From a phage: a DNA stretch of 51,150 nt. The DNA lies in sequence record PX930853.1. One strand, written 5' to 3'. Shown here piece after piece: positions 144 through 10,700 of the stretch (position 1 is the stretch's first letter; the number at the start of each line of letters is the position of its first letter). The position numbers and the translations under genes are program-made. The notes under the pieces were generated by a model, which saw only the letters and a list, made by a program, of their open reading frames with translations, was not told the origin of the DNA and made no database searches.

Positions 144-2588
144 ATGGCGATTTACAGACAAGGCCAAGCGTCAATGGACGCTCAAGGTTATATAACTGGA
201 TACGACACAAAATGGCGAGAGCAACTAACACTCATTCGCCCTGGCGCGACCATTGTATTCTTAACTCAGCCGTTACAAATCGCTGTAATAACTGAAGTTA
301 TCAACGATACAAGCATTCGTGCAATTACAACTGGTGGAGCGGTAGTTGCTCGCTCAAATTACGCTATCTTGCTTCATGACTCAATAACTGTTGATGGGCT
401 TGCTCAAGATGTAGCGGAAACATTGCGCTACTATCAGAGTAAAGAAACAATCATTGAGGAAGCTATTGATTTTTTCAAAGACTTTGACCTGAAGGCGTTA
501 CAAGACCTGGTAAATCAGATTAAGGATGCAGCAGAAAATACATCAGCCGATCGCGCTGCAACTGAGCAACTTAAGAATGAAACAAATCAGATTAAATCTG
601 ATACGAACACCATTAAGCAACAGACTCAGCAAATAAAGGACTCTGCATTAACCGAAGTTAATAGCGCAAGAGATCAGGGAGTTCTGGCGGTAAACCAAAC
701 GAAAGATCAGGCTGTTTCAGAAATGAATCAGATAAAGAGTGATGTTTCCGGCCTTAAAAATGAAGCTGTGTCAGCAAGGGACTCAGCAAAGCAACACATG
801 ACAGATGCTCAGTCTGCAAAGAGTGCTGCTGAAACTGCAGAGGCTGGCGCTGTTACTGCGCGCAATGAGGCGGAGGAATTTGCTAAAAGCCTGAATGCTG
901 AAAACCTTTTACGCAAAGATGCAAACCTTTCAGATCTAACCAATGTTAATACAGCAAGGACAAGCTTAAAAGTTGACAAGGTTGTTCAAGGCGCATCGTA
1001 TTCAGACTTTTTAAGTGCGAATAGTGCTATGCGTCTTCGTGTTCAGGATAACAACACTTGGGGAGGTTGGAATGGTCAATGGATAGCTCTTAGTGTTGGT
1101 AATGGTGGTACTGGTGCAACAAGTGCAGAAGGTGCAAGGGATAATCTTGAAACGTTCCGTGAATCAAGGACCGCTCTTGGAGAAACAGATCTAAATACGC
1201 TGACTGGCGCAAAAAGCGGTGTGTATTATCAATCTGGAAACGCTGCCGCTACACCTGGTCGTGGATACCCAGAGAGTTCCGCTGGAACACTTATGGTGTT
1301 AAGAAACGTAGCAAACGGCATTGATGGTTGTACTCAGATTTACTACCCATACAATAACAGCAACAGATTTCATATAAGAAAATGTCTTGCAGGCAATCCA
1401 AGCTCATGGACAGGGTGGGCTACATATGACCGACCAAGCAATAGCCCTGAATTTAGAGATTCAATTGGGCTTGGAGGAACGGACAAAGTTCAATTTGGGC
1501 AGGTTAAGGCATACGGGACAAGTGGGTTTTTCGCCGATGGTATAGAAAGCACTCAGGGTGCATCCTTTGTCACAAGATACTATGACTCAACAAACACACA
1601 TAAAGGACAAGGTGAATTTATGGTTGACACTAATGGAGATGTGAGCATTATCAATAGGGGTGTAAAATCAGGTGATGCAACTCATTTCTTTACATTTGAC
1701 CGTGCTGGTCGCTTTTGGTCTCCGAATGGAATTACGACTGCCACAAGCATGAATTGGAATGATGGTAATAGTGTTGTTAACCGTGGCTTATTTATGGCAG
1801 GGCAAGCTAATGCACCCGTTGATTTGATGCACGGAGGGATACACGTTGGATACAGTAATTCCTACGCAATGCAGATCGCGGCAAGAGACAATGGCTTTTA
1901 CGGCAGGTGCATGGAGAGTAATATATGGAAGGAGTGGAAGAAATTTGCATTAGAAAACAGTGATATAGTTAACTTTTCAGCCGCTGGATATACATCAGAT
2001 GCAATATATACAACAAAAGCGATATCGTTTATAAATGGTGGTACAAATTATAATCTACCAGCCTCTTACGGCGTATTGGCTGGATTCGGTAATGGTAATA
2101 CTTCTGCGAATGGCTGCTATGTTGGTCAGCTATGCTGGGATAAAGCGACTGGCAACCTCTTTACAAGGATAAGGGATGATGGTCAGAAAGTATGGCTTAA
2201 CTGGTTGAAAGTAACAACCGCCGCCGTATCCGATGAAACACTGAAAGATGTTAAAGGCAATCTTAATGTTGAAGGCGCCCTAGACAACGTTAACCGCATG
2301 GAATTTAAGTTGTTCCGTTATCTGAACGATTCTCCAGAGCGTAGCGCTCGCCGTGGTGTTATAGCTCAGCAAGTCAGGAATATTGACCGTGAGTACACGA
2401 CAAAGGTCGGGGATCAGTTGCATCTTGACACGACTCCGATGTTGCTTGATGGTCTTGCTGCAATTCAGGCGTTAACCAAGCGGGATCAGGAAAACAAGGA
2501 AAGGATTAGCAAACTAGAAAGTGAACTTGAGGAACTAAAAGCTGTAGTTTCAGTGTTAATTAACAAGCCATCAACGCTTGAGGATTAA
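144..2588 (+). CDS. tail fiber protein with C-terminal intramolecular chaperone (peptidase S74-like) domain
   Basis: AGGAGG RBS then ATG at 144 (track ORF starts at upstream GTG 120); coiled-coil-rich N-terminal half; C-terminal ~120 aa ([28 protein letters not shown]...LESELEELK) resembles self-cleaving chaperone domain of endosialidase-type fibers. Confidence 0.75.
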
Positions 2589-2601
2589 CAAAATTTAACC
2601 G

Positions 2602-2631
2602 AAAGGCGCGGCTACGGCTTCGCCTTTTTTC
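2602..2631 (+). terminator. putative rho-independent terminator after tail fiber gene
   Basis: GC-rich dyad (AAAGGCG...CGCCTTT) followed by T-run. Confidence 0.5.
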
Positions 2632-2764
2632 GTATTTATGCCATTTACTGACATATCGCTTACAAATGTTTTATATATTCCTAGTAATTTGTCGCATGCT
2701 CTTTGTCGTAACATAAATGTTGCAAATTTTTTTTAATTTTTTTAACGTCAAAGAGGAATTTACT

Positions 2765-2965
2765 ATGTCAGATATTACTTTACTCCCTACTGGTAGTGGT
2801 TTTGGTTGAGAAGATGGCGCGGCTGGACTTGGTGGTGCTGTTGGTGGCATGTTGTCAATAATGACCGCCGGAAAGCTGAACGCTCATCAAACTGAACTTG
2901 CAAAGCGAATTACTGTTAATGTTATTTCTGTTCTTTGGATGGCTGAAAGTGAAAAAGGGGCGTAA
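2765..2965 (+). other. small Gly-rich ORF (66 codons) interrupted by in-frame TGA at codon 15 (2807-2809); pseudogene or readthrough candidate
   Basis: AGAGGA RBS 7 nt upstream of ATG 2765; MSDITLLPTGSGFG-TGA-EDGAAGLGGAVGGMLSIMTAGKLNAHQTELAKRITVNVISVLWMAESEKGA in one frame. Confidence 0.2.
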
Positions 2966-2978
2966 TGCCCCTTTGTTT
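2952..2978. terminator. bidirectional hairpin terminator
   Basis: GGGGC-GTAAT-GCCCC stem flanked by A-run upstream and TTTGTTT downstream. Confidence 0.5.
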
Positions 2979-3417
2979 ATGCGTTTAACCCTTCTCCGTT
3001 ATCTCTATGCCATTGCTTATGGTGTGCTTGGCACAGCCATCTAACTGATAAAGGTTTGCTGTAATCGTCATGGTGTGCAACTGATTTTTCACTACCGCAA
3101 ATTTCACATGGTGATTTTTCTACCTTCCCATCACGTAATGCGTTATTTAATGCGTTATGTGCTTTATATTTTCCTGGAAACTTATTTCTCCATGATTTTA
3201 AGTATTTAGGATCTTGCCTGCTTCCTCGATTCCTATCGTATTCCCTTTTTTCATCTATGTTATCCCACCTGTTTTTTGTGACATCCTTTTTTGTGCATTC
3301 CTTGCACTTGTTTAAGTGTCCATCAGCCATCCGTTTATGCTTATAGAATTCTTTAATGGGCTTTACAGCCCCGCATTTAAAGCATTTCTTAAAGCGCATA
3401 GATTCGATGTTTTCCAT
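2977..3417 (-). CDS. HNH family endonuclease (putative homing endonuclease) with N-terminal Cys-rich zinc-finger-like region
   Basis: CxxC...CxxC motifs and C-terminal HH...N...H signature (VAHHDDYSKPLSVRWLCQAHHKQWH); start overlaps SSB 3' end. Confidence 0.6.
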   Translation of the reverse strand: MENIESMRFKKCFKCGAVKPIKEFYKHKRMADGHLNKCKECTKKDVTKNRWDNIDEKREYDRNRGSRQDPKYLKSWRNKFPGKYKAHNALNNALRDGKVEKSPCEICGSEKSVAHHDDYSKPLSVRWLCQAHHKQWHRDNGEGLNA

Positions 3418-3886
3418 ATTGCAATCCTACACTAGCAAAAGGGATGTCATCGTCAAAGTCAATCGGCGGCTGATTGCTTTGCTGTGGATGCTGTTGAGTA
3501 TTTTGTTGCTGTTGCTGTTGTGGTTGCCCCCAGCCTCCTTGCGTTCGCTGCTGATATTGTTGCTGGCTTTCTCCGCGCTGGCTAAATATCAGGTTTGCAA
3601 ATCCGCCAGGCTGCACGGTGCTATAAATCTTTCCGTTGTATTCTCGCGTTTCAACTCGCAATGTATCGCAGGAAACAGAAATAACCTTTCCTACTTGGAA
3701 AGCATCAGCATACCAACCATTCAGGCCGTCTGTTTTCGCGTTAAAGAAAAATACATAGTTTGTATACTGCCAATTTCCCTCTCGGTCTTTGTATCGCTCG
3801 GAAAGCTCAACAACATATAGCGTGCTGCCGTTAGGCATTTGCTTTACTTTTGGCTCTTTTCGAATCTCACCTGTAATAACGTGCAT
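3389..3886 (-). CDS. ssb: single-stranded DNA-binding protein (SSB) with 15-aa extension after DDDIPF
   Basis: OB-fold-like N-terminal region, Gln/Gly-rich linker, acidic DFDDDIPF motif; AGGAGA RBS before ATG at 3886 (track ORF over-extended to 3937). Confidence 0.75.
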   Translation of the reverse strand: MHVITGEIRKEPKVKQMPNGSTLYVVELSERYKDREGNWQYTNYVFFFNAKTDGLNGWYADAFQVGKVISVSCDTLRVETREYNGKIYSTVQPGGFANLIFSQRGESQQQYQQRTQGGWGQPQQQQQQNTQQHPQQSNQPPIDFDDDIPFASVGLQYGKHRIYAL

Positions 3887-3908
3887 TTTGTTTTCTCCTA
3901 TGACAAAA

Positions 3909-3927
3909 GGGGCGCAAGCGCCCCGTT
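3909..3927 (-). terminator. hairpin (attenuator/terminator) between erf-like gene and ssb
   Basis: GGGGCGC-AA-GCGCCCC dyad followed on minus strand by TTTTGTC. Confidence 0.35.
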
Positions 3928-3929
3928 TA

Positions 3930-4586
<657 letters not shown>

Positions 4587-4844
4587 TTATTCCTTCTCGC
4601 TTTCAAGCATTTTAATAAATTCTTCTGTTGATTCAGCAACCAACCTCTCGCGCTCTTTGTTTCCCTTGCTCATCGTTGCAACAAGGATAACGTTGTCAAT
4701 GGATGCAACCACGTCCTTAATGTAAGTCTTCATTTCTTCCGACTCTTTAATGTTCATCGGCTTAATAAATTCTTTCATTGCAATGGTTACTCGATCAATG
4801 AATCGTTCTAAGTGCAATAAGGTGGCATTGTCTTTATCTGTCAT
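4587..4844 (-). CDS. hypothetical protein (85 aa) in recombination module
   Basis: ORF with GGAGAATGAGA RBS; stop 4 nt upstream of next gene start. Confidence 0.5.
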   Translation of the reverse strand: MTDKDNATLLHLERFIDRVTIAMKEFIKPMNIKESEEMKTYIKDVVASIDNVILVATMSKGNKERERLVAESTEEFIKMLESEKE

Positions 4845-4919
4845 TTCTCATTCTCCAGTTATCTGGTTGGCGAATTATATCACCAACCATTATAAAAGTT
4901 TAGCTATTTATTTAGTTTG

Positions 4920-5975
4920 TCATAGATACTGCCTGAATTGAGCACGAACCCAATCAGGAGTATCAAGATCAATTTCTGGTTGCCCGTTTGCATACGAAGG
5001 CCATTCATCTAACTGTTGGCAAACGTTGAACTTGTTGATCACGCTCATGTACTGGATACGACCGATCTTCAATTGCTCAATGTTCATGCGGAATGCGAGC
5101 GGCAAGTAAGGCTCTTTCTTCTCTTGAGCAAGCAATCTCACAATTACTGGCCTTTCCTCGTCTGGATACGCCTTTTTAAATAAATCATGCTGCAAAGCCA
5201 TTTTGAGATAATACCCGTGATTGTAAGCCAGGCGCTGGAAGTCAACCGGATTTGCGCTAACCGTTGTTTTATAGTCAGTGATAATCACAGCTTCTGGATA
5301 GATGACTTCTTCATAAATCGGTCGGCCTTTTTCGTCGTAACCGTTAATGATTGTGGCCTTTACATCCTTGTTTACGTCAACGTGATCAAGGCGCACTTTA
5401 ACTTTTACGCCATTGATGATCCCGAATATTGACATTTCACGCTGCGCGGTTGGGCTGTTCATGCAAGCGTTATGCTCCGGTATGGCCTCAAGTACGCGCC
5501 GCATCGCTACACAGGCATCATAATCTTTAGCGTCTATTAACTGCACTCCGTCCGCTGCGGCCTGGCATTCTGCCATCATTTCGATAAGCCACCACACATT
5601 GAGATCCTCGCCGCACTTGTACAGCATTTCCAGTAATTCAGGGTATTGTTTACCCGTCGTACCTTTCAGTCCAAAAGATTTCAGCTTTGATGCTAACGCC
5701 GTTTGACTAGTGATCAGATCTTTAAAATCATCCTGCGACGGTGCGCGGCGATATGTTTTTTCGAATAACTCCTTGCTTTCAAAATTGGTATGCGACTGCG
5801 TACCGAAAACAAGTGCCTTAGTTTCCTGGCGAGGCTTGTACTTCCAGTACGCCGGGCAAGTGCTGTAAATCTCCGCCAGGCTGGAACCGCTGACGTATTC
5901 AGCCGTCCACGCGTTAGGATCATGATAAAGCTCATTGCTCATTTCTTCGCTAGTATAGGCGTTAAAATCACTCAT
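4920..5975 (-). CDS. recombination exonuclease, PD-(D/E)XK type (RecE/exonuclease VIII-like), putative
   Basis: 351-aa ORF with GAGGAG RBS; D...ITDYKTT nuclease-like motif; first gene of exo-erf-ssb module. Confidence 0.6.
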   Translation of the reverse strand: MSDFNAYTSEEMSNELYHDPNAWTAEYVSGSSLAEIYSTCPAYWKYKPRQETKALVFGTQSHTNFESKELFEKTYRRAPSQDDFKDLITSQTALASKLKSFGLKGTTGKQYPELLEMLYKCGEDLNVWWLIEMMAECQAAADGVQLIDAKDYDACVAMRRVLEAIPEHNACMNSPTAQREMSIFGIINGVKVKVRLDHVDVNKDVKATIINGYDEKGRPIYEEVIYPEAVIITDYKTTVSANPVDFQRLAYNHGYYLKMALQHDLFKKAYPDEERPVIVRLLAQEKKEPYLPLAFRMNIEQLKIGRIQYMSVINKFNVCQQLDEWPSYANGQPEIDLDTPDWVRAQFRQYL

Positions 5976-6164
5976 CTTTAATGCTCCTCGTTGCTTTGTG
6001 TGTGCATTGTAGCCATTTGGTTGATTTAGTCAATAGTTGTTTTGTTTTTTTTCTGTTTTCTAAACGTTCTCAGATGGCAATAAAACAAATTTGACGAGTA
6101 AGTTAATGATTAATATGTGTTATTTTTCTTGTTCCTCTGTTCTCTCAGATACGCCGGATTATAT

Positions 6165-6335
6165 ACATACACATGAATGATGGCACATACAGATACACAG
6201 AAAGAAAAATCACCACAAACAACCAAAACCACAAGAAACACAGATAACAAGAAAAAACAAATATACATACATAAATAAATAAACTATTGATTTTATATGT
6301 ATATATCTATTTTATTAATTATTTATTGTTCTTAT
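6165..6335. repeat. AC/AT-rich non-coding repeat, copy A (homologous to 35615..35775)
   Basis: Shared blocks AGATACACA, A(C)CA(A)GATAACAA, ATACATA(C/T)ATAAATAAATAA in same order and orientation in both copies. Confidence 0.6.
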
Positions 6336-6404
6336 GTTGGCTAAAATTTGTGCTAAATTTACGCCGTCTTAATTCCGATAACACCGGAAAACAAAAAATA
6401 ACAA

Positions 6405-6424
6405 GTAGCACTTTTTGCTAAACG
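6405..6424 (+). promoter_or_regulatory. conserved intergenic box (TTGCTA variant), ~55 bp upstream of lipoprotein gene
   Basis: AGTAGCACTTTTTGCTAAAC; TATAGT hexamer ~21 nt downstream. Confidence 0.35.
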
Positions 6425-6477
6425 CGCTCCTTAAAATCGTGTATAGTTGAACCAACAACAACAAAGGAGATGAAAAG

Positions 6478-6705
6478 ATGAAAAAGTTAATTGCCGTTTT
6501 AATCGCAGCCGTTGCGCTGACTGGTTGCGCAAATATGCCTAAACGTGAATGTACGGCTATTTATGAAAATAGCGGAATGCAGTATTCAGTTGCTATCTTT
6601 GGGGCAAAACGAGTTGGCGATCGCACTCTTGTTAAGGCTGGCTATCCATTTAATTTTCAGTGGGTAAGCATTGATAACTTTAAAAACGCTGATTGCAGTC
6701 TGTAA
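6478..6705 (+). CDS. lipoprotein, Cor-like superinfection-exclusion candidate
   Basis: Signal peptide with lipobox LTGC (MKKLIAVLIAAVALTGC); AGGAG RBS; isolated plus-strand gene next to tail genes, as for cor in FhuA-dependent phages. Confidence 0.5.
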   Translation: MKKLIAVLIAAVALTGCANMPKRECTAIYENSGMQYSVAIFGAKRVGDRTLVKAGYPFNFQWVSIDNFKNADCSL

Positions 6706-6715
6706 ATAAAAACAA

Positions 6716-6737
6716 AGGGGCAAAAGCCCCTTTTTTA
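6716..6737. terminator. bidirectional rho-independent terminator
   Basis: AGGGGC-AAAA-GCCCCT stem with flanking A-run and T6. Confidence 0.6.
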
Positions 6738-6738
6738 A

Positions 6739-7377
6739 TTAGTCGTAAATATCAGTCTTTATTGCAATTATTGAATTTCCGTTGTTTGTTATAGATCCTG
6801 TTCCTGGAGTTGTCCTTGCCGCACTTATCCTTGTGCTTGAACCATTATACCTGCACGATGTGTATATGTCAGACGCACCCATACCTATAACCGCACCAAG
6901 CCTTGATGGGCAAACAGCATAAGAACCAGATAATGTCTGATCTATATTCGTCCCACCAGAAGATCCAGGAGTACCAATTGTTACAAGATCTGTTAGTACC
7001 CTGCTCTCATTAGTTAAAACCAACTTTCCGCTTTCATCCCATATTGCCATACCATATTTGGGTAGAGTTTGAGGGAAGATAGCAAATATATAAACAGTCA
7101 TTGTAAATGATTGACCGTATGGATTGCCTCCGTTTACATAAATGTTGCCACCGTTCCTGTAAGCTATTAATGCGGTTGGCTGCTGTGTGTTTGTTGTTTT
7201 TATAAATGCCATACATGGATAAGATTGATTTAATGGTATATTTGCGCTTGCGCTATGATAGGCAGAAGTGCCAGAAGATGAATAAGTGTACTTGCCATAT
7301 AAGCAAAATGGCGTTGATTTTGGTGTGATAAATGGATTCCCATTTGATAAAGATAACATTGCTCCATATTCAGCCAT
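6739..7377 (-). CDS. hypothetical tail-associated protein, MAEYG paralog 1
   Basis: ORF starting MAEYGAMLSLS with GAGAGGG RBS; internal YGMAIWDESGK repeats N-terminal motif of upstream paralog. Confidence 0.5.
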   Translation of the reverse strand: MAEYGAMLSLSNGNPFITPKSTPFCLYGKYTYSSSGTSAYHSASANIPLNQSYPCMAFIKTTNTQQPTALIAYRNGGNIYVNGGNPYGQSFTMTVYIFAIFPQTLPKYGMAIWDESGKLVLTNESRVLTDLVTIGTPGSSGGTNIDQTLSGSYAVCPSRLGAVIGMGASDIYTSCRYNGSSTRISAARTTPGTGSITNNGNSIIAIKTDIYD

Positions 7378-7378
7378 T

Positions 7379-7684
7379 TTAAGCCCTCTCAAGAAAAACA
7401 ACTAACTCGCACTTTGAAGAAGAATACCTATTTGGACCAACTGACGATGTAGGACTAATTCTTATTGTATTTCCAGATGCCACTATTTCCCTTCCAACTC
7501 CTCTAGCGCCTTCATCAAGTGAAACAACATACCCAACCTTAAAACCACTTGGAATGTTAAAACTCCACGATCCGCTTGTCTGACCAGCGGAAAGACTGAT
7601 AACACCAACAACTGAAACCGGCTTAATGCCGTAGTTATTATATTTTCCGTTTGCATCCCAAGTTGAGATACCATATTCAGCCAT
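7379..7684 (-). CDS. hypothetical tail-associated protein, MAEYG paralog 2
   Basis: ORF starting MAEYGISTWDANGK with GGAGG RBS; track ORF over-extended. Confidence 0.5.
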   Translation of the reverse strand: MAEYGISTWDANGKYNNYGIKPVSVVGVISLSAGQTSGSWSFNIPSGFKVGYVVSLDEGARGVGREIVASGNTIRISPTSSVGPNRYSSSKCELVVFLERA

Positions 7685-7727
7685 TATTAAACCTCCATAA
7701 ATGCGGGGCAAGCGCCCCGCTTTGATT

Positions 7728-10700
7728 TTACCACGTACCAGTAAGCCTACCAATCTGAACACGCAAGCTCCCGTTTGCGTCCCGTACACTTATCGTTTCG
7801 TTGGTCAACTTCATGGCCCCTTCTCCAGATGTAGAACCATAGTTCTCAAATCTGCCGTTTTTATCCAGCCTCCACCCCTGCTGATTAGCAACAAAGTTAT
7901 TCGACTGAATATAATTACCAATCATGGCATTTGTGATGGAACCGTTTTTCACTAGCAGGCTGTTAATGAAAACCTGGTTGTTTTCAACAACGAAAGGCAA
8001 AGTAAACGTACCTCCAGTAGAGCTAGTCATGATCGCGAACCTGTTAGCATCGAACAAGATTTGCGAGATCAGGCCTTGAGAAGATTGCGACAACTGCATG
8101 ATCATGCCTGCGCTGTACTTCTGCCCCTTGTAAGTAAGGCCCAATTTCATAGCGTACTTAGCGCCAACCGAATCAACGTTAGCCCACGAATCAAGTTTTT
8201 CGGCTAGTGCTGATTCAACGTCTCCGAATTTGGCTGTTAAAGCCTGGTCAGCCTGAACCCTTGCCTCTGTCTCATTAGCGATAGCCTGTCTTACTTCTGA
8301 TATGTTCGCCTCAACATCAACCTTGATTGCATCGTTAAGGTCATTAATCTCTTTCGAAAACTTAGCGTCAAGCTGCTGAACGGCTTGCGCACGCGCTTCT
8401 GATTCATTGGTAATGGTTTGCCTTACCTCGCCAATGCTTGCAGCCGTATCTCGTTTTACGCCGTCTATTTCCTTCGTAAATTTAGAATCAAGTTGCTGCA
8501 CTTGAGTAGCTCGCGTCTCTGATTCGTTGGCAATCGCTTCCTGAACGGTTTTGATACTTGAAACTATATCTTCATCAATTGACGCCTTTAACTCTTCGAT
8601 TTGAGTTACTCGCGCCTCCGTTTCGGTAGCAATAAGCTCCAGTGCATGACCATATTCAGCCTTACGCTTTCCGTTTTGTACTCGCGTCCACTTCACATCA
8701 GCATCGTTTGCCAATGCGTTCTGGATGATTGATTGCGCCTGGTCTTTGATTTTGTTGGCACTGTCTATGGCGTTCTCTTTGATTTCTTGACCAGCTTCGG
8801 TATCAAAAATCTTGTCCAGAATGTCGCCTAAAACAGAGTCAACATCATCTGACGCCATGCCACGAACAAAGTCAGTCCAGCCGGAAACGTTGCCTATTCT
8901 GTCAACGCTGCGGATTCTATACCATACAACTTGCCCCGCTGGTAACGTGCCATGCCAATACTCATATTGAGGATACGGGATCAGCGTAAGCAAACTTGAG
9001 TTTTCCACCGTTCCATCTGGCGATTGGTGAAGCTCGATGTAAGCCGTATCTCCTGACCCTTCCGGCATACCCCATTTGACACGAATGCCAAAAACTTCAT
9101 TATCAGAAGCTGTAAGATTAATCGGCGCTCCTGGCTCGCCAACTTTACCTGTCAGGGTTGCGGTTGCAATCTTTGACCACGGGGAAGTGTTACCGCTTGC
9201 AGAAACAGATCTAACCCTTACTTGGTAGTTACCAGAATAAATTCCTTCTACCTCTATCTCTTTGTTAGCTGTCTGCGGTGTATTCAGCCAGTTGCCATCA
9301 CCTTTTCGCCATTGCATTTCATACAATGACGCATAAGGCACTTTTTCCCATGACACAACCATAGTTTCAACGCTGACACCCTGCACGACGCGAGAATAAG
9401 ATGAGATCTGCACGTTCTCAGGCGCTGCCATCACGTCAGGCTGAACAATTGAAGTTGGCCTGTCATCAATGTTTACTCCATAATCAATCTCGTCGTATTT
9501 GTTCGGATCGTACTCTACAGCCGTGATTGAATAGGTAAACTCGTTTTCGTCATCACCCTTGCTGATAGTTGTCACAACGTATTGCTGCAACGCAAGGTCA
9601 GTACGGTCAATCGCAAAAACGGTATCAGGCTTAACATCAAAACCAAATCCAATATTTAACTCAATGGTTTTTCCGTCTGCGCTAACCTTTGAGATCGTGC
9701 GCTTAACTGGCTTACCGTCCGGCTTGTTGATGATAATAAAATCACCAGGACGAGCATCAACCTTAAACGGAACGAAAACCTGCAATCCTGAAACTTCCAT
9801 CACTCGGCCCGATAGGTTTAACGTTAGGTTGCTGCTCTGAAAATTATCAGCGATAGCAATCACATCACCTATTGATGGAATCATCCCCTCCAGTCCAGTA
9901 GCAAAGTTTACAGTAGTGCTTCTAAGGTTTGTTTTCAAAACCCACCGACCGCGACGATTCGCTTCGCTCCTGCGTGTACACCCGATCGCTGTAATGCTTG
10001 TTGGATTGTATCCAAATCGTAATGCCGCCTCAGTATCAAAAACCCCCTCTACGTCCTGTTGATACATGTTTTGTTCGTCGTCAAACGTCACGTTACACTG
10101 CGTGTACATGCTTTTTTCGCTTGCGGTTGTGTACTGAAAATCACCGTTGATGACGTTTTCATTAGTAAACACGTATGATGGATCGCGCGGCTTATCAATC
10201 ACGATTGATAAGCTCTCACCATTCCAAAAGCTCATTCCGCGAAAGATTGAGCAAATGTCACGGATTAGCTGATAAGCCTCAACTTGATTCTGAATCACAA
10301 CATCGCATAGGTAGCGAGGCTCTGTACCGCCTTTACCGTCTGGAACTTTCTGATCACAGTAAACTCCTGCCTCATATAAGCTCCACTTGTCGATCTGTAT
10401 TCCTAGCTCTCGCTGGTCAAGCCCATAACGCTGATTCGTTACCAGATCATAAAGCACCCAAGCAGGATTATTTGACCACGCTTTTTTAAAAGTACCATCC
10501 CATGACCCGTGATATTCTCTTGATATTGGATCGTAGTTGCTTGGCACGTTAATAATCTTCCATTTCTTTTTTATAGAAATGTTAGGGATTTGCGTAGGAA
10601 ACAATTCGCTGTCAAATTCTACGAATACAAGGCCAGTCAGAGGATAACGGAATTTTGCATCCACAACCTCAGCGTAACTTTGCAGTTTGATTTTATCAGT

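What the first reader, a model, noticed from the sequence alone, without database searches (positions are those of the whole stretch)
2765..2965. Second ORF with an early in-frame TGA: small Gly-rich protein between tail fiber and HNH genes
A strong RBS (AGAGGA) precedes ATG 2765. The frame reads MSDITLLPTGSGFG, then TGA at 2807-2809, then continues open for 51 more codons with a glycine-zipper-like hydrophobic stretch (GLGGAVGGMLSIMTAG), and ends in the loop of a terminator. Together with the HNH gene this makes two ORFs each broken by a single early opal codon, while TGA clearly works as a stop elsewhere (tape measure and the 526-aa protein end in ATGA overlaps). This may be coincidental decay of two accessory genes, or context-dependent TGA readthrough giving low-level expression of a small membrane protein.
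Basis: seen in the sequence. Interest (0 to 1): 0.45.

Follow-up and report, generated by a model that had tools for sequence, protein, structure and literature searches.

The report
Decayed fusion scar of two deleted genes
The "small ORF with an in-frame TGA" is the dead remnant left when a 1.6-kb deletion joined the first 28 codons of one accessory phage gene to the last 38 codons of another; it is an ordinary pseudogene scar, not a readthrough gene.

Summary
The sequence is as described: AGAGGA, ATG 2765, 14 codons, TGA 2807-2809, 51 open codons, and TAA in a terminator loop. The interpretation does not hold.

The window is a T1-like (Drexlerviridae) phage. In Hanrivervirus relatives, four genes lie between the tail-fibre module and the convergent HNH/SSB genes: a 233-aa protein (phrog_9288), 107-aa and 163-aa proteins, and an 85-aa protein (phrog_7239).

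- **Left part, 2765-2848:** codons 1-28 of the first gene.
- **Right part, 2849-2965:** codons 48-85 of the fourth gene.
- **Junction, 2848|2849:** the two parts are joined in frame at a short microhomology.

The RBS and the terminator are simply inherited from the two parent genes. The "glycine zipper" straddles the junction.

The TGA is private to this genome; all ten relatives have GGC. It sits among other private changes that hit family-invariant residues (M4I; RIAVKVIAVLG→RITVNVISVLW). The fragments change at an intergenic-like rate, about seven times that of the adjacent HNH gene.

At least seven other independent truncations of the same cassette exist. The closest backbone relatives have no gene here at all. 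The HNH gene is intact, with no early TGA.

Verdict: a neutral deletion scar, of low interest.

The parts
2589..2764 (+). Intergenic leader inherited from Hanrivervirus-type phages. It holds the tail-fibre terminator hairpin plus T-run (~2603-2631) and the untranslated leader of the former phrog_9288 gene.
   Evidence: Alignable to 8 relatives, with 8/176 window-private changes. The hairpin was read directly from the sequence. No sigma-70 consensus promoter was found and there was no Rfam match.
2752..2757 (+). Shine-Dalgarno AGAGGA, the native ribosome-binding site of the phrog_9288 (pSf-1 gp92-like) gene.
   Evidence: AGAGGAA is invariant in all 8 aligned sequences, 7 nt upstream of the ATG.
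2765..2848 (+). 5' remnant: codons 1-28 of a phrog_9288 gene, which is 233 aa in pSf-1 gp92 and KarlJaspers bas06_0034. It carries window-private changes M4I, G11S, G15stop, A17D and 2 synonymous changes.
   Evidence: phrog_9288 positions 1-30 of 234 are matched by residues 1-30, E=1.2e-9. 7/84 changes are private. M4 is invariant in 33 family members.
2807..2809 (+). In-frame TGA, derived from GGC (Gly15) by two substitutions (G>T and C>A). It is private to this genome.
   Evidence: All 10 relatives have GGC at this codon. TGA is a normal stop in this genome and no tRNA gene is present.
2844..2851 (.). Deletion junction (2848|2849). The left parent reads ..GTGGC|CTG.., the right parent reads ..GTGGA|ATG.., and the window reads GTGGC|ATG. 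This is an imperfect microhomology GTGGnnTG in the same codon phase, so the fusion is in frame.
   Evidence: BLAST end-points overlap at 2844-2852. The three sequences are shown side by side.
2849..2965 (+). 3' remnant: codons 48-85 plus the stop of a phrog_7239 gene, which is 85 aa in pSf-1 gp89 and Henu8 gp50. ATG 2849 is the internal Met48 codon of that gene, not a native start. The family motif RIAVKVIAVLG is degraded to RITVNVISVLW.
   Evidence: phrog_7239 positions 43-85 of 85 are matched, E=1e-13. Five amino-acid changes fall on columns conserved in 39-40 of 40 family representatives. 6/117 changes are private, against 4/441 in HNH.
2954..2974 (.). Bidirectional intrinsic-terminator hairpin (AAAGGGGC-GTAAT-GCCCCTTT) shared by the convergent units. 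It is the native terminator of the phrog_7239 gene, and the TAA stop lies in its loop.
   Evidence: Terminator scan. The identical hairpin follows the intact 85-aa gene in Henu8, vB_EcoP_06 and E6.
2977..3417 (-). Intact HNH/endonuclease VII-like gene of 146 aa. It is a neighbour, not part of the scar. It is listed because the finding claimed it was interrupted.
   Evidence: The ORF is uninterrupted. It is 95% identical to annotated endonucleases of the same length. It matches phrog_2340 with E=8.5e-38.

Best explanation
The ORF is a non-functional deletion scar, a chimeric pseudogene.

An ancestor of this part of the genome carried the four-gene accessory cassette found in Hanrivervirus-type phages between the lateral tail-fibre module and the convergent HNH/SSB genes. 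The cassette consists of phrog_9288 (233 aa), phrog_9157 (107 aa), phrog_8329 (163 aa) and phrog_7239 (85 aa).

An illegitimate, microhomology-guided recombination (GTGGnnTG) deleted about 1.6 kb, from codon 29 of the first gene to codon 47 of the fourth. The microhomology lies in the same codon phase in both genes, so the two stumps were joined in frame. The stumps kept the first gene's RBS and ATG and the fourth gene's stop and terminator. That is why the region looks like a tidy small gene.

Freed from selection, the stumps then accumulated substitutions at an intergenic-like rate, mostly GC>AT. These include the double change GGC>TGA.

Shown: the chimeric homology, the junction, the private substitutions and their pattern, and independent deletions in other phages. 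Inferred: the order of events, the lack of any product beyond at most a 14-residue peptide, and arrival of the scar in this Warwickvirus-like backbone together with the HNH gene and the tail-fibre 3' end by recombination.
For: 1. **Chimeric homology.** The conceptual product hits two unrelated PHROGs end to end. Residues 1-30 match phrog_9288 positions 1-30/234, and residues 24-66 match phrog_7239 positions 43-85/85.
2. **Parent genes are separate.** In morffagbaw, ESh4, pSf-1 and KarlJaspers the two parent genes are intact and ~1.6 kb apart. BLAST places window 2586-2851 on the first gene and 2844-3448 on the fourth gene plus HNH.
3. **Junction.** The junction microhomology is shown.
4. **The TGA is private.** All 10 relatives have GGC. 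In the 84-nt stump the window has 7 private changes (4 codons altered, 2 silent), while 7 relatives are identical or differ by one base.
5. **Invariant residues are lost.** In the 3' stump the five amino-acid changes fall on columns conserved in 39-40 of 40 full-length family representatives. The window residue is seen in 0, 0, 0, 1 and 0 of 40. Intact genes differ almost only synonymously (e.g. 7 synonymous: 1 non-synonymous). Fisher p=0.0075.
6. **Substitution rates.** Private-substitution rates are 8.3% and 5.1% in the stumps, 4.5% in the intergenic leader and 0.9% in HNH. Stumps versus HNH give p=1.4e-4. 10 of 13 changes are GC>AT.
7. **Independent truncations of the same cassette:**
   - Henu8, vB_EcoP_06 and A121: 8-nt microhomology, 85-aa gene kept.
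   - E6 and A14b: fused out of frame.
   - PGN590.
   - ENA contigs L014 and L015.
   - Logan contigs L016 and L017.
   - Tls.
   - PDP46.
   - JakobBernoulli: CAA>TAA nonsense mutation.

8. **Nothing here in backbone relatives.** vB_Eco-B1.2 and SLUR29, 96-97% identical over window 3400-9000, have nothing between the tail-fibre module and SSB.
9. **Standard genetic code.** TGA ends 16/55 long ORFs and there is no tRNA gene.
Against: - The RBS and ATG are intact, so a 14-residue peptide may still be made. ATG 2849 could in principle start a 38-residue peptide.
- No expression data exist.
- A second, independent in-frame fusion of the same two genes, uninterrupted and 99 aa long, exists in another phage (P0169). 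Such fusions are therefore at least tolerated.
- The substitution counts are small (13 changes) and the set of relatives is modest.
- The G>W change is shared with the L014/L015 contigs, so not every change arose after this particular deletion.
Confidence: 0.93

Rival explanations
1. Programmed or context-dependent UGA readthrough yields a low-abundance 66-residue Gly-rich membrane protein.
For: The frame stays open for 51 codons after the TGA and ends at a terminator. The RBS is strong. The RNA around and after the TGA folds somewhat better than shuffles (z=-2.2). An uninterrupted fusion of the same two genes exists elsewhere (P0169).
Against: - The TGA is not conserved; all 10 relatives have GGC.
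- The open downstream frame is explained by its origin as the coding sequence of another gene.
- The downstream part has lost the family's invariant motif and evolves at an intergenic rate.
- There is no suppressor tRNA and no Rfam element.
- Peak hydrophobicity is 1.21, below a transmembrane threshold, and the 'zipper' spans the junction.
- No Gly-zipper Pfam family is hit at E<=0.1.
- From my own recollection of Poole et al. 1995, not checked here, UGA-G is not among the leakiest E. coli contexts.
Confidence: 0.02
2. The 38-codon ORF starting at ATG 2849 (MLSIMTAGK...EKGA) is a functional mini-protein, a retained C-terminal module of the 85-aa family.
For: It has an ATG start and the native stop and terminator. 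Remnants beginning at nearly the same residue occur in L016/L017 and in PDP46, where a 46-aa ORF is annotated.
Against: - ATG 2849 is an internal Met codon of the parent gene.
- The only purine-rich run (GGTGG) ends 1 nt before the ATG, too close for a normal Shine-Dalgarno (read).
- Five of 38 residues are changed at positions that are 97-100% conserved in the family.
- No gene with this product is on record in the 153-billion-gene index.
- The apparent clustering of breakpoints is expected from the detection floor of homology searches, because shorter remnants cannot be found.
Confidence: 0.03
3. The TGA is a sequencing or assembly error in an otherwise intact fused gene.
For: Only one genome with this junction is available. 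The junction 24-mer and 32-mer are absent from the viral and metagenome collections.
Against: GGC>TGA needs two separate base changes in one codon. It sits among eleven other private substitutions across 201 nt, whereas the adjacent 441-nt HNH gene has only four. This pattern indicates real divergence rather than a local read error. Even without the TGA, the product would be a chimera lacking both families' conserved parts.
Confidence: 0.02

Closest known systems
phrog_9288 family (Shigella phage pSf-1 gp92; BASEL KarlJaspers bas06_0034, annotated 'putative sugar-binding protein'; Escherichia phage aaroes gp76)
   Same: Window 2765-2848 is homologous to codons 1-28. It has the identical RBS and start context and the conserved N-terminus MSDMTLLPTGG..GGEAGAAGLGGAVGG.
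   Different: Family members are 225-265 aa long. They have a Gly-rich N-terminal ~50 residues, a long predicted helix and a Cys-rich C-terminus. The structure model has low confidence, pLDDT 54. Here only 12% of the gene remains, with a stop at codon 15 and the invariant Met4 changed.
phrog_7239 family (pSf-1 gp89; Henu8 gp50; DanielBernoulli bas08_0027), 85-aa proteins of unknown function
   Same: Window 2849-2965 is homologous to codons 48-85, with the same stop-in-terminator-loop arrangement.
   Different: The N-terminal 47 residues are missing. The invariant motif RIAVKVIAVLG reads RITVNVISVLW.
Other deletion alleles of the same cassette (Henu8, vB_EcoP_06, E6/A14b, PGN590, Tls, contigs L014-L017)
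   Same: The locus and outer boundaries are the same: the tail-fibre terminator on the left and the bidirectional terminator on the right. The junctions are microhomology-type, and the left breakpoint region is the same as in Henu8.
   Different: This junction (28|48) is unique to the window. It is in frame but additionally carries a nonsense codon. Henu8-type alleles keep the whole 85-aa gene. The E6-type fusion is out of frame. The L016-type fusion is in frame and uninterrupted.
Programmed stop-codon readthrough genes of phages (e.g. Qbeta A1 readthrough of UGA; named from general knowledge)
   Same: There is a single in-frame UGA followed by a long open frame.
   Different: The stop, the extension and the joint product are not conserved. 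The two halves come from different genes.

Membership tests
Programmed UGA-readthrough gene | The stop codon is conserved at the same position in homologues. | tested here: not met
   All 10 relatives have GGC (Gly) at this codon; the TGA is private.
Programmed UGA-readthrough gene | The upstream and downstream parts form one conserved protein, with the extension under purifying selection. | tested here: not met
   The two parts map to two genes 1.6 kb apart in intact relatives. The downstream part has 5 changes at family-invariant positions and an intergenic-like substitution rate.
Programmed UGA-readthrough gene | A decoding aid is present: a suppressor tRNA, recoding signal or leaky context. 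| tested here: inconclusive
   No tRNA gene in the window and no Rfam element. The downstream fold has z=-2.2 only. The actual readthrough efficiency of GGT-TGA-GAA cannot be measured with these tools.
phrog_9288 (pSf-1 gp92-like) protein | Full-length protein of ~225-265 aa with helical body and Cys-rich C-terminus. | tested here: not met
   Only codons 1-28 are present, with a stop at codon 15.
phrog_7239 (pSf-1 gp89-like) protein | Protein of ~78-98 aa with the invariant RIAVKVIAVLG motif. | tested here: not met
   Only codons 48-85 are present, and the motif reads RITVNVISVLW.
Pseudogene / deletion scar | Homology to parts of intact genes in relatives, with the intervening sequence missing. 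| tested here: met
   About 1.6 kb is absent relative to morffagbaw, ESh4 and pSf-1.
Pseudogene / deletion scar | Disabling lesions and relaxed selective constraint. | tested here: met
   There is a premature TGA. Nine non-synonymous or nonsense changes against 2-3 synonymous private changes, compared with 1:8 among intact genes, gives p=0.0075. The private-change rate in the stumps versus HNH gives p=1.4e-4.
Pseudogene / deletion scar | The locus is dispensable: independent losses or absence in relatives. | tested here: met
   At least 7 other truncation alleles and one nonsense allele exist. The locus is empty in vB_Eco-B1.2 and SLUR29.
Glycine-zipper small membrane protein | A conserved transmembrane-length GxxxG segment, or a match to Gly-zipper families. 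| tested here: not met
   No Gly-zipper Pfam hit at E<=0.1. The Kyte-Doolittle 19-residue maximum is 1.21. The segment GLGGAVGG|MLSIMTAG is split by the junction, with its halves coming from different genes.

The most novel reading that the evidence does not exclude
In-frame fusions of the Gly-rich N-terminus of the 233-aa protein to the C-terminal ~40 residues of the 85-aa protein have arisen at least twice: here, and as an uninterrupted 99-aa ORF in contigs L016/L017. The C-terminal ~38-40 residues are also retained in PDP46. One could read this as selection for a minimal functional module, a mini-protein that keeps a residual activity of the tail-fibre-adjacent cassette, with the window's copy expressed at a low level by UGA readthrough or from ATG 2849. 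My evidence makes this unlikely for the window, because invariant residues are lost. It does not formally exclude it.
Probability: 0.03. Interest if true: 0.4.

Novelty: already known. Interest (0 to 1): 0.08.

Why it matters
The main value is for annotation. Neither the 14-codon ORF, the 38-codon ORF nor a 'readthrough' ORF should be annotated as a gene. The window provides no evidence for opal readthrough or recoding in this phage.

A secondary point concerns the four-gene cassette of unknown function next to the lateral tail-fibre genes. It is conserved across several siphophage groups, yet it has been lost or truncated many times independently. That marks it as a conditionally dispensable accessory module. 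Its full-length form could be tested functionally, for example in pSf-1 or the BASEL phage KarlJaspers.

Tried and rejected
- **Recoding or suppressor tRNA.** ARAGORN found no tRNA, and stop-codon usage is standard. Rejected.
- **Structured RNA or known RNA family in 2400-3600.** No Rfam match at E<=1. The fold around the TGA is only mildly better than shuffles. Rejected as a recoding signal.
- **Sigma-70 promoter in the leader.** None found by the consensus scan. This is uninformative for phage-specific promoters.
- **Other genomes with the same junction.** The exact 32-mer and 24-mer are absent from viral contigs and metagenome contigs. The 38-aa product is absent from the gene index. The allele is so far private.
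- **Function of the parent 233-aa family.** There is no Pfam domain and no informative names. The AlphaFold model has low confidence (pLDDT 54, pTM 0.22), so I ran no fold search. The BASEL paper (PMC8594841) discusses variability of the lateral tail-fibre locus but not this gene.
- **Antisense ORF 2671-2850 (59 aa).** It is the Pro/Ala/Ser-rich mirror of the Gly codons and runs through the intergenic leader. I considered it an artefact.
- **tblastn with the extended SSB tail.** It found nothing, probably because of low-complexity masking and the short query.
- **Clustering of right-hand breakpoints at codons 45-48 of the 85-aa gene.** I considered this as a sign of a protected module. I attribute it mainly to ascertainment, because shorter remnants would not be detected by the searches used.

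Full report
**1. The observation**

Reading the window confirms the description.
- AGAGGA lies at 2752-2757 and ATG at 2765.
- The frame reads MSDITLLPTGSGFG, then TGA at 2807-2809, then 51 sense codons, then TAA at 2963-2965.
- That TAA lies in the loop of the hairpin AAAGGGGC-GTAAT-GCCCCTTT (2954-2974).
- TGA is a regular stop in this genome.
- No tRNA gene is present.

The companion statement about the HNH gene is wrong. ORF 2977-3417 (-) is an uninterrupted 146 codons. It is 95% identical to, and the same length as, the annotated endonucleases of phages morffagbaw and ESh4.

**2. What the region is**

The window belongs to a T1-like phage (Drexlerviridae, Tempevirinae). In Hanrivervirus-type relatives (pSf-1, KarlJaspers, morffagbaw, ESh4) the layout is:
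- The lateral tail-fibre module comes first, followed by a conserved ~175-nt leader.
- Four genes on the same strand follow: a 233-236-aa protein (phrog_9288; pSf-1 gp92), a 107-aa protein (phrog_9157), a 163-aa protein (phrog_8329) and an 85-aa protein (phrog_7239; pSf-1 gp89).
- A bidirectional terminator comes next.
- The convergent SSB gene lies beyond it, preceded in some phages by an HNH gene.

The window ORF is a chimera of the two outer genes.
- Window 2586-2851 aligns to the leader plus the first 28 codons of the 233-aa gene.
- Window 2844-3448 aligns to the last 38 codons of the 85-aa gene plus HNH.
- The conceptual readthrough product hits phrog_9288 positions 1-30 of 234 with its residues 1-30. 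It hits phrog_7239 positions 43-85 of 85 with its residues 24-66.

About 1.6 kb is missing. The junction is 2848|2849.
- The left parent reads GTTGGTGGC|CTG.
- The right parent reads GAGTGGA|ATG.
- The window reads GTTGGTGGC|ATG.

This is an imperfect microhomology, GTGGnnTG, lying in the same codon phase in both genes, and that is why the fusion is in frame.

- The strong RBS is the native RBS of the 233-aa gene and is invariant in relatives.
- The open frame after the TGA is the coding sequence of the 85-aa gene.
- The stop in a terminator loop is that gene's native end and is identical in Henu8, vB_EcoP_06 and E6.
- The 'glycine zipper' GLGGAVGG|MLSIMTAG is half from one gene and half from the other. 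Its hydrophobicity peak (1.21) is below a transmembrane threshold.

**3. Evidence that it is dead**

*The 84-nt 5' stump.* The TGA replaces GGC, which is present in all ten relatives compared. Two base changes were required. The window has seven private substitutions here: M4I, G11S, G15stop (2 nt), A17D and two silent changes. Seven of the relatives are identical to each other or differ by one base. Met4 is invariant in 33 diverse family members.

*The 3' stump.* The window differs by T>A, A>T, K>N, A>S and G>W. These columns are conserved in 39, 40, 39, 39 and 39 of 40 full-length cluster representatives. The family's most conserved motif, RIAVKVIAVLG, becomes RITVNVISVLW. Intact genes differ from each other here almost only synonymously, up to 7 synonymous against 1 non-synonymous.

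*Statistics.*

| Region | Window-private changes | Rate |
|---|---|---|
| 5' stump | 7/84 | 8.3% |
| 3' stump | 6/117 | 5.1% |
| Intergenic leader | 8/176 | 4.5% |
| HNH gene | 4/441 | 0.9% |

- Window-private non-synonymous to synonymous counts (about 9:3), compared with 1:8 among intact genes, give Fisher p=0.0075.
- The two stumps against HNH give p=1.4e-4.
- Ten of the 13 changes are GC>AT, and seven of them are G:C>T:A. This is what unconstrained DNA under the usual mutational bias looks like.

**4. The locus is repeatedly lost**

I found many independent lesions of the same cassette, measured against the intact layout.
- **(A) Henu8, vB_EcoP_06 and A121.** The deletion runs from codon 29 of the 233-aa gene to just upstream of the 85-aa gene, across a perfect 8-nt microhomology GTGGCCTG. 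It leaves a 29-codon stump and an intact 85-aa gene.
- **(B) E6 and A14b.** The stumps are fused out of frame, with an 11-nt filler.
- **(C) PGN590.** The deletion runs from the RBS into codon ~15 of the 85-aa gene.
- **(D) The window.**
- **(E) ENA contigs L014 and L015.** The deletion runs from the leader into codon ~24. These contigs also carry the G>W change and an adjacent HNH gene.
- **(F) Logan contigs L016 and L017.** This is a more distant phage with an uninterrupted in-frame fusion, 63 codons of the first gene joined to ~36 of the last (99 aa).
- **Others.** Tls and Henu4_2 carry an unannotated remnant. PDP46 has a 46-codon remnant next to TerL. BASEL phage JakobBernoulli has a CAA>TAA nonsense mutation at codon 78.

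The phages closest to the window's backbone are vB_Eco-B1.2 and SLUR29 (Warwickvirus), 96-97% identical over window 3400-9000. They have no gene at all here. The tail-fibre module's stop codon, a different terminator and the SSB stop follow one another within 33 nt.

Window homology to that backbone stops near 523 and resumes exactly at the SSB Phe codon (3438). The interval 2505-3437 is Hanrivervirus-like. I infer that the scar arrived by recombination together with the HNH gene and the 3' end of the tail-fibre gene. Co-conversion during HNH homing is a plausible but untested route.

**5. Rival explanations**

*Readthrough.* This fails every comparative test: the stop is not conserved, the joint protein is not conserved, and the extension is not under constraint. 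There is also no suppressor tRNA or known recoding RNA.

*A 38-residue peptide from ATG 2849.* This is not excluded by sequence alone. However, that ATG is an internal Met codon without a properly spaced Shine-Dalgarno. The peptide has lost the family's invariant residues. No such gene product is on record.

*Sequencing error.* This is unlikely because the TGA needs two changes and is embedded in a run of other private substitutions.

*Recurrent retention of the last ~38-40 codons (window, L016, PDP46).* This could hint at a protected module. I attribute it mainly to the detection floor of the homology searches that found these remnants.

**6. Comparison with the known, and verdict**

The parent families, phrog_9288 and phrog_7239, have no known function.
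- The 233-aa family has no Pfam domain.
- Its model suggests a disordered Gly-rich head and a long helix, but confidence is low.
- The BASEL label 'putative sugar-binding protein' is an annotation, not a tested function.

The window's ORF is not a member of either family in any functional sense. It is a remnant of both. As a kind of object, a microhomology-mediated deletion scar decaying in a dispensable phage accessory locus, it is ordinary. Interest is low. The useful outcome is that no gene and no opal readthrough should be inferred here.

Noticed in passing
window 3389-3439 (-), with L006 3045-3100 and L007 3043-3100: In HNH-bearing phages (window, morffagbaw, ESh4) the SSB gene has no stop after its canonical C-terminal DDDIPF. 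It continues for 15 codons (ASVGLQYGKHRIYAL), overlapping the HNH start by 29 nt. HNH-less relatives (Henu8, vB_Eco-B1.2, SLUR29) end exactly at DDDIPF. From general knowledge of E. coli SSB, the free C-terminal Phe matters for partner binding, so the HNH insertion may alter SSB function.
   Followed up: partly
window ~524-3437: This interval is a mosaic patch. The backbone on both sides (1-523 at 84-86%, and 3438 onward at 96%) matches Warwickvirus-like phages SLUR29 and vB_Eco-B1.2. The interval 2505-3437 matches Hanrivervirus-type phages, and the distal tail-fibre part (524-2504) matches none of the loci fetched. The right boundary coincides exactly with the end of the SSB core and the HNH insertion, which is compatible with co-conversion during homing.
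   Followed up: partly
L006 792-2622 (morffagbaw); L003, L004, L007; many phages: A four-gene cassette (phrog_9288, 9157, 8329, 7239; 233, 107, 163 and 85 aa) of unknown function sits next to the tail-fibre genes. Its two outer genes (the only ones searched) occur in several siphophage groups: Drexlerviridae, JenK1/slur01-type, Solent/Sasha-type, Aeromonas SD04, Hafnia yong3 and Edwardsiella eiAU (85-aa gene only). It has been truncated independently at least eight times.
   Followed up: partly
L016 3001-3300 and L017 662-961 (Logan ERR13651904/5): A more distant phage carries an uninterrupted in-frame fusion (99 aa, P0169). It joins the first 63 codons of the 233-aa gene to the last ~36 codons of the 85-aa gene, at an ATGAGCGG-type microhomology, and it keeps the RIAVKVIAVLG motif.
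   Followed up: partly
L002 1706-2410 (JakobBernoulli / Bas07): The 233-aa gene of this BASEL phage carries a CAA>TAA nonsense codon at position 78. It is annotated as two separate ORFs, one labelled 'hypothetical protein' and one 'putative sugar-binding protein'.
   Followed up: yes
L019 ~2000-2204 (phage Tls) and L018 2477-2617 (phage PDP46): Tls carries an unannotated remnant of the 85-aa gene, from about codon 18, with the stop codon lost, between its tail-fibre gene and ssb. PDP46 has a 46-codon remnant of the same gene annotated immediately after TerL, in a different genomic context.
   Followed up: partly
P0134 / P0168 (Escherichia phage BEK12B and relatives): This is a variant of the 85-aa gene. 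The conserved sequence stops at ...RIAV and is replaced by an unrelated C-terminus (YVVNFNIAYQIAFNEGNSKPVRLKSLAMDVYTYVSIPKRSGL). It looks like another rearrangement at the same locus.
   Followed up: no
window 2765-2965: The mutation spectrum of the window-specific changes in the scar is strongly GC>AT (10 of 13). Seven of these are G:C>T:A transversions, including both changes that created the TGA.
   Followed up: partly
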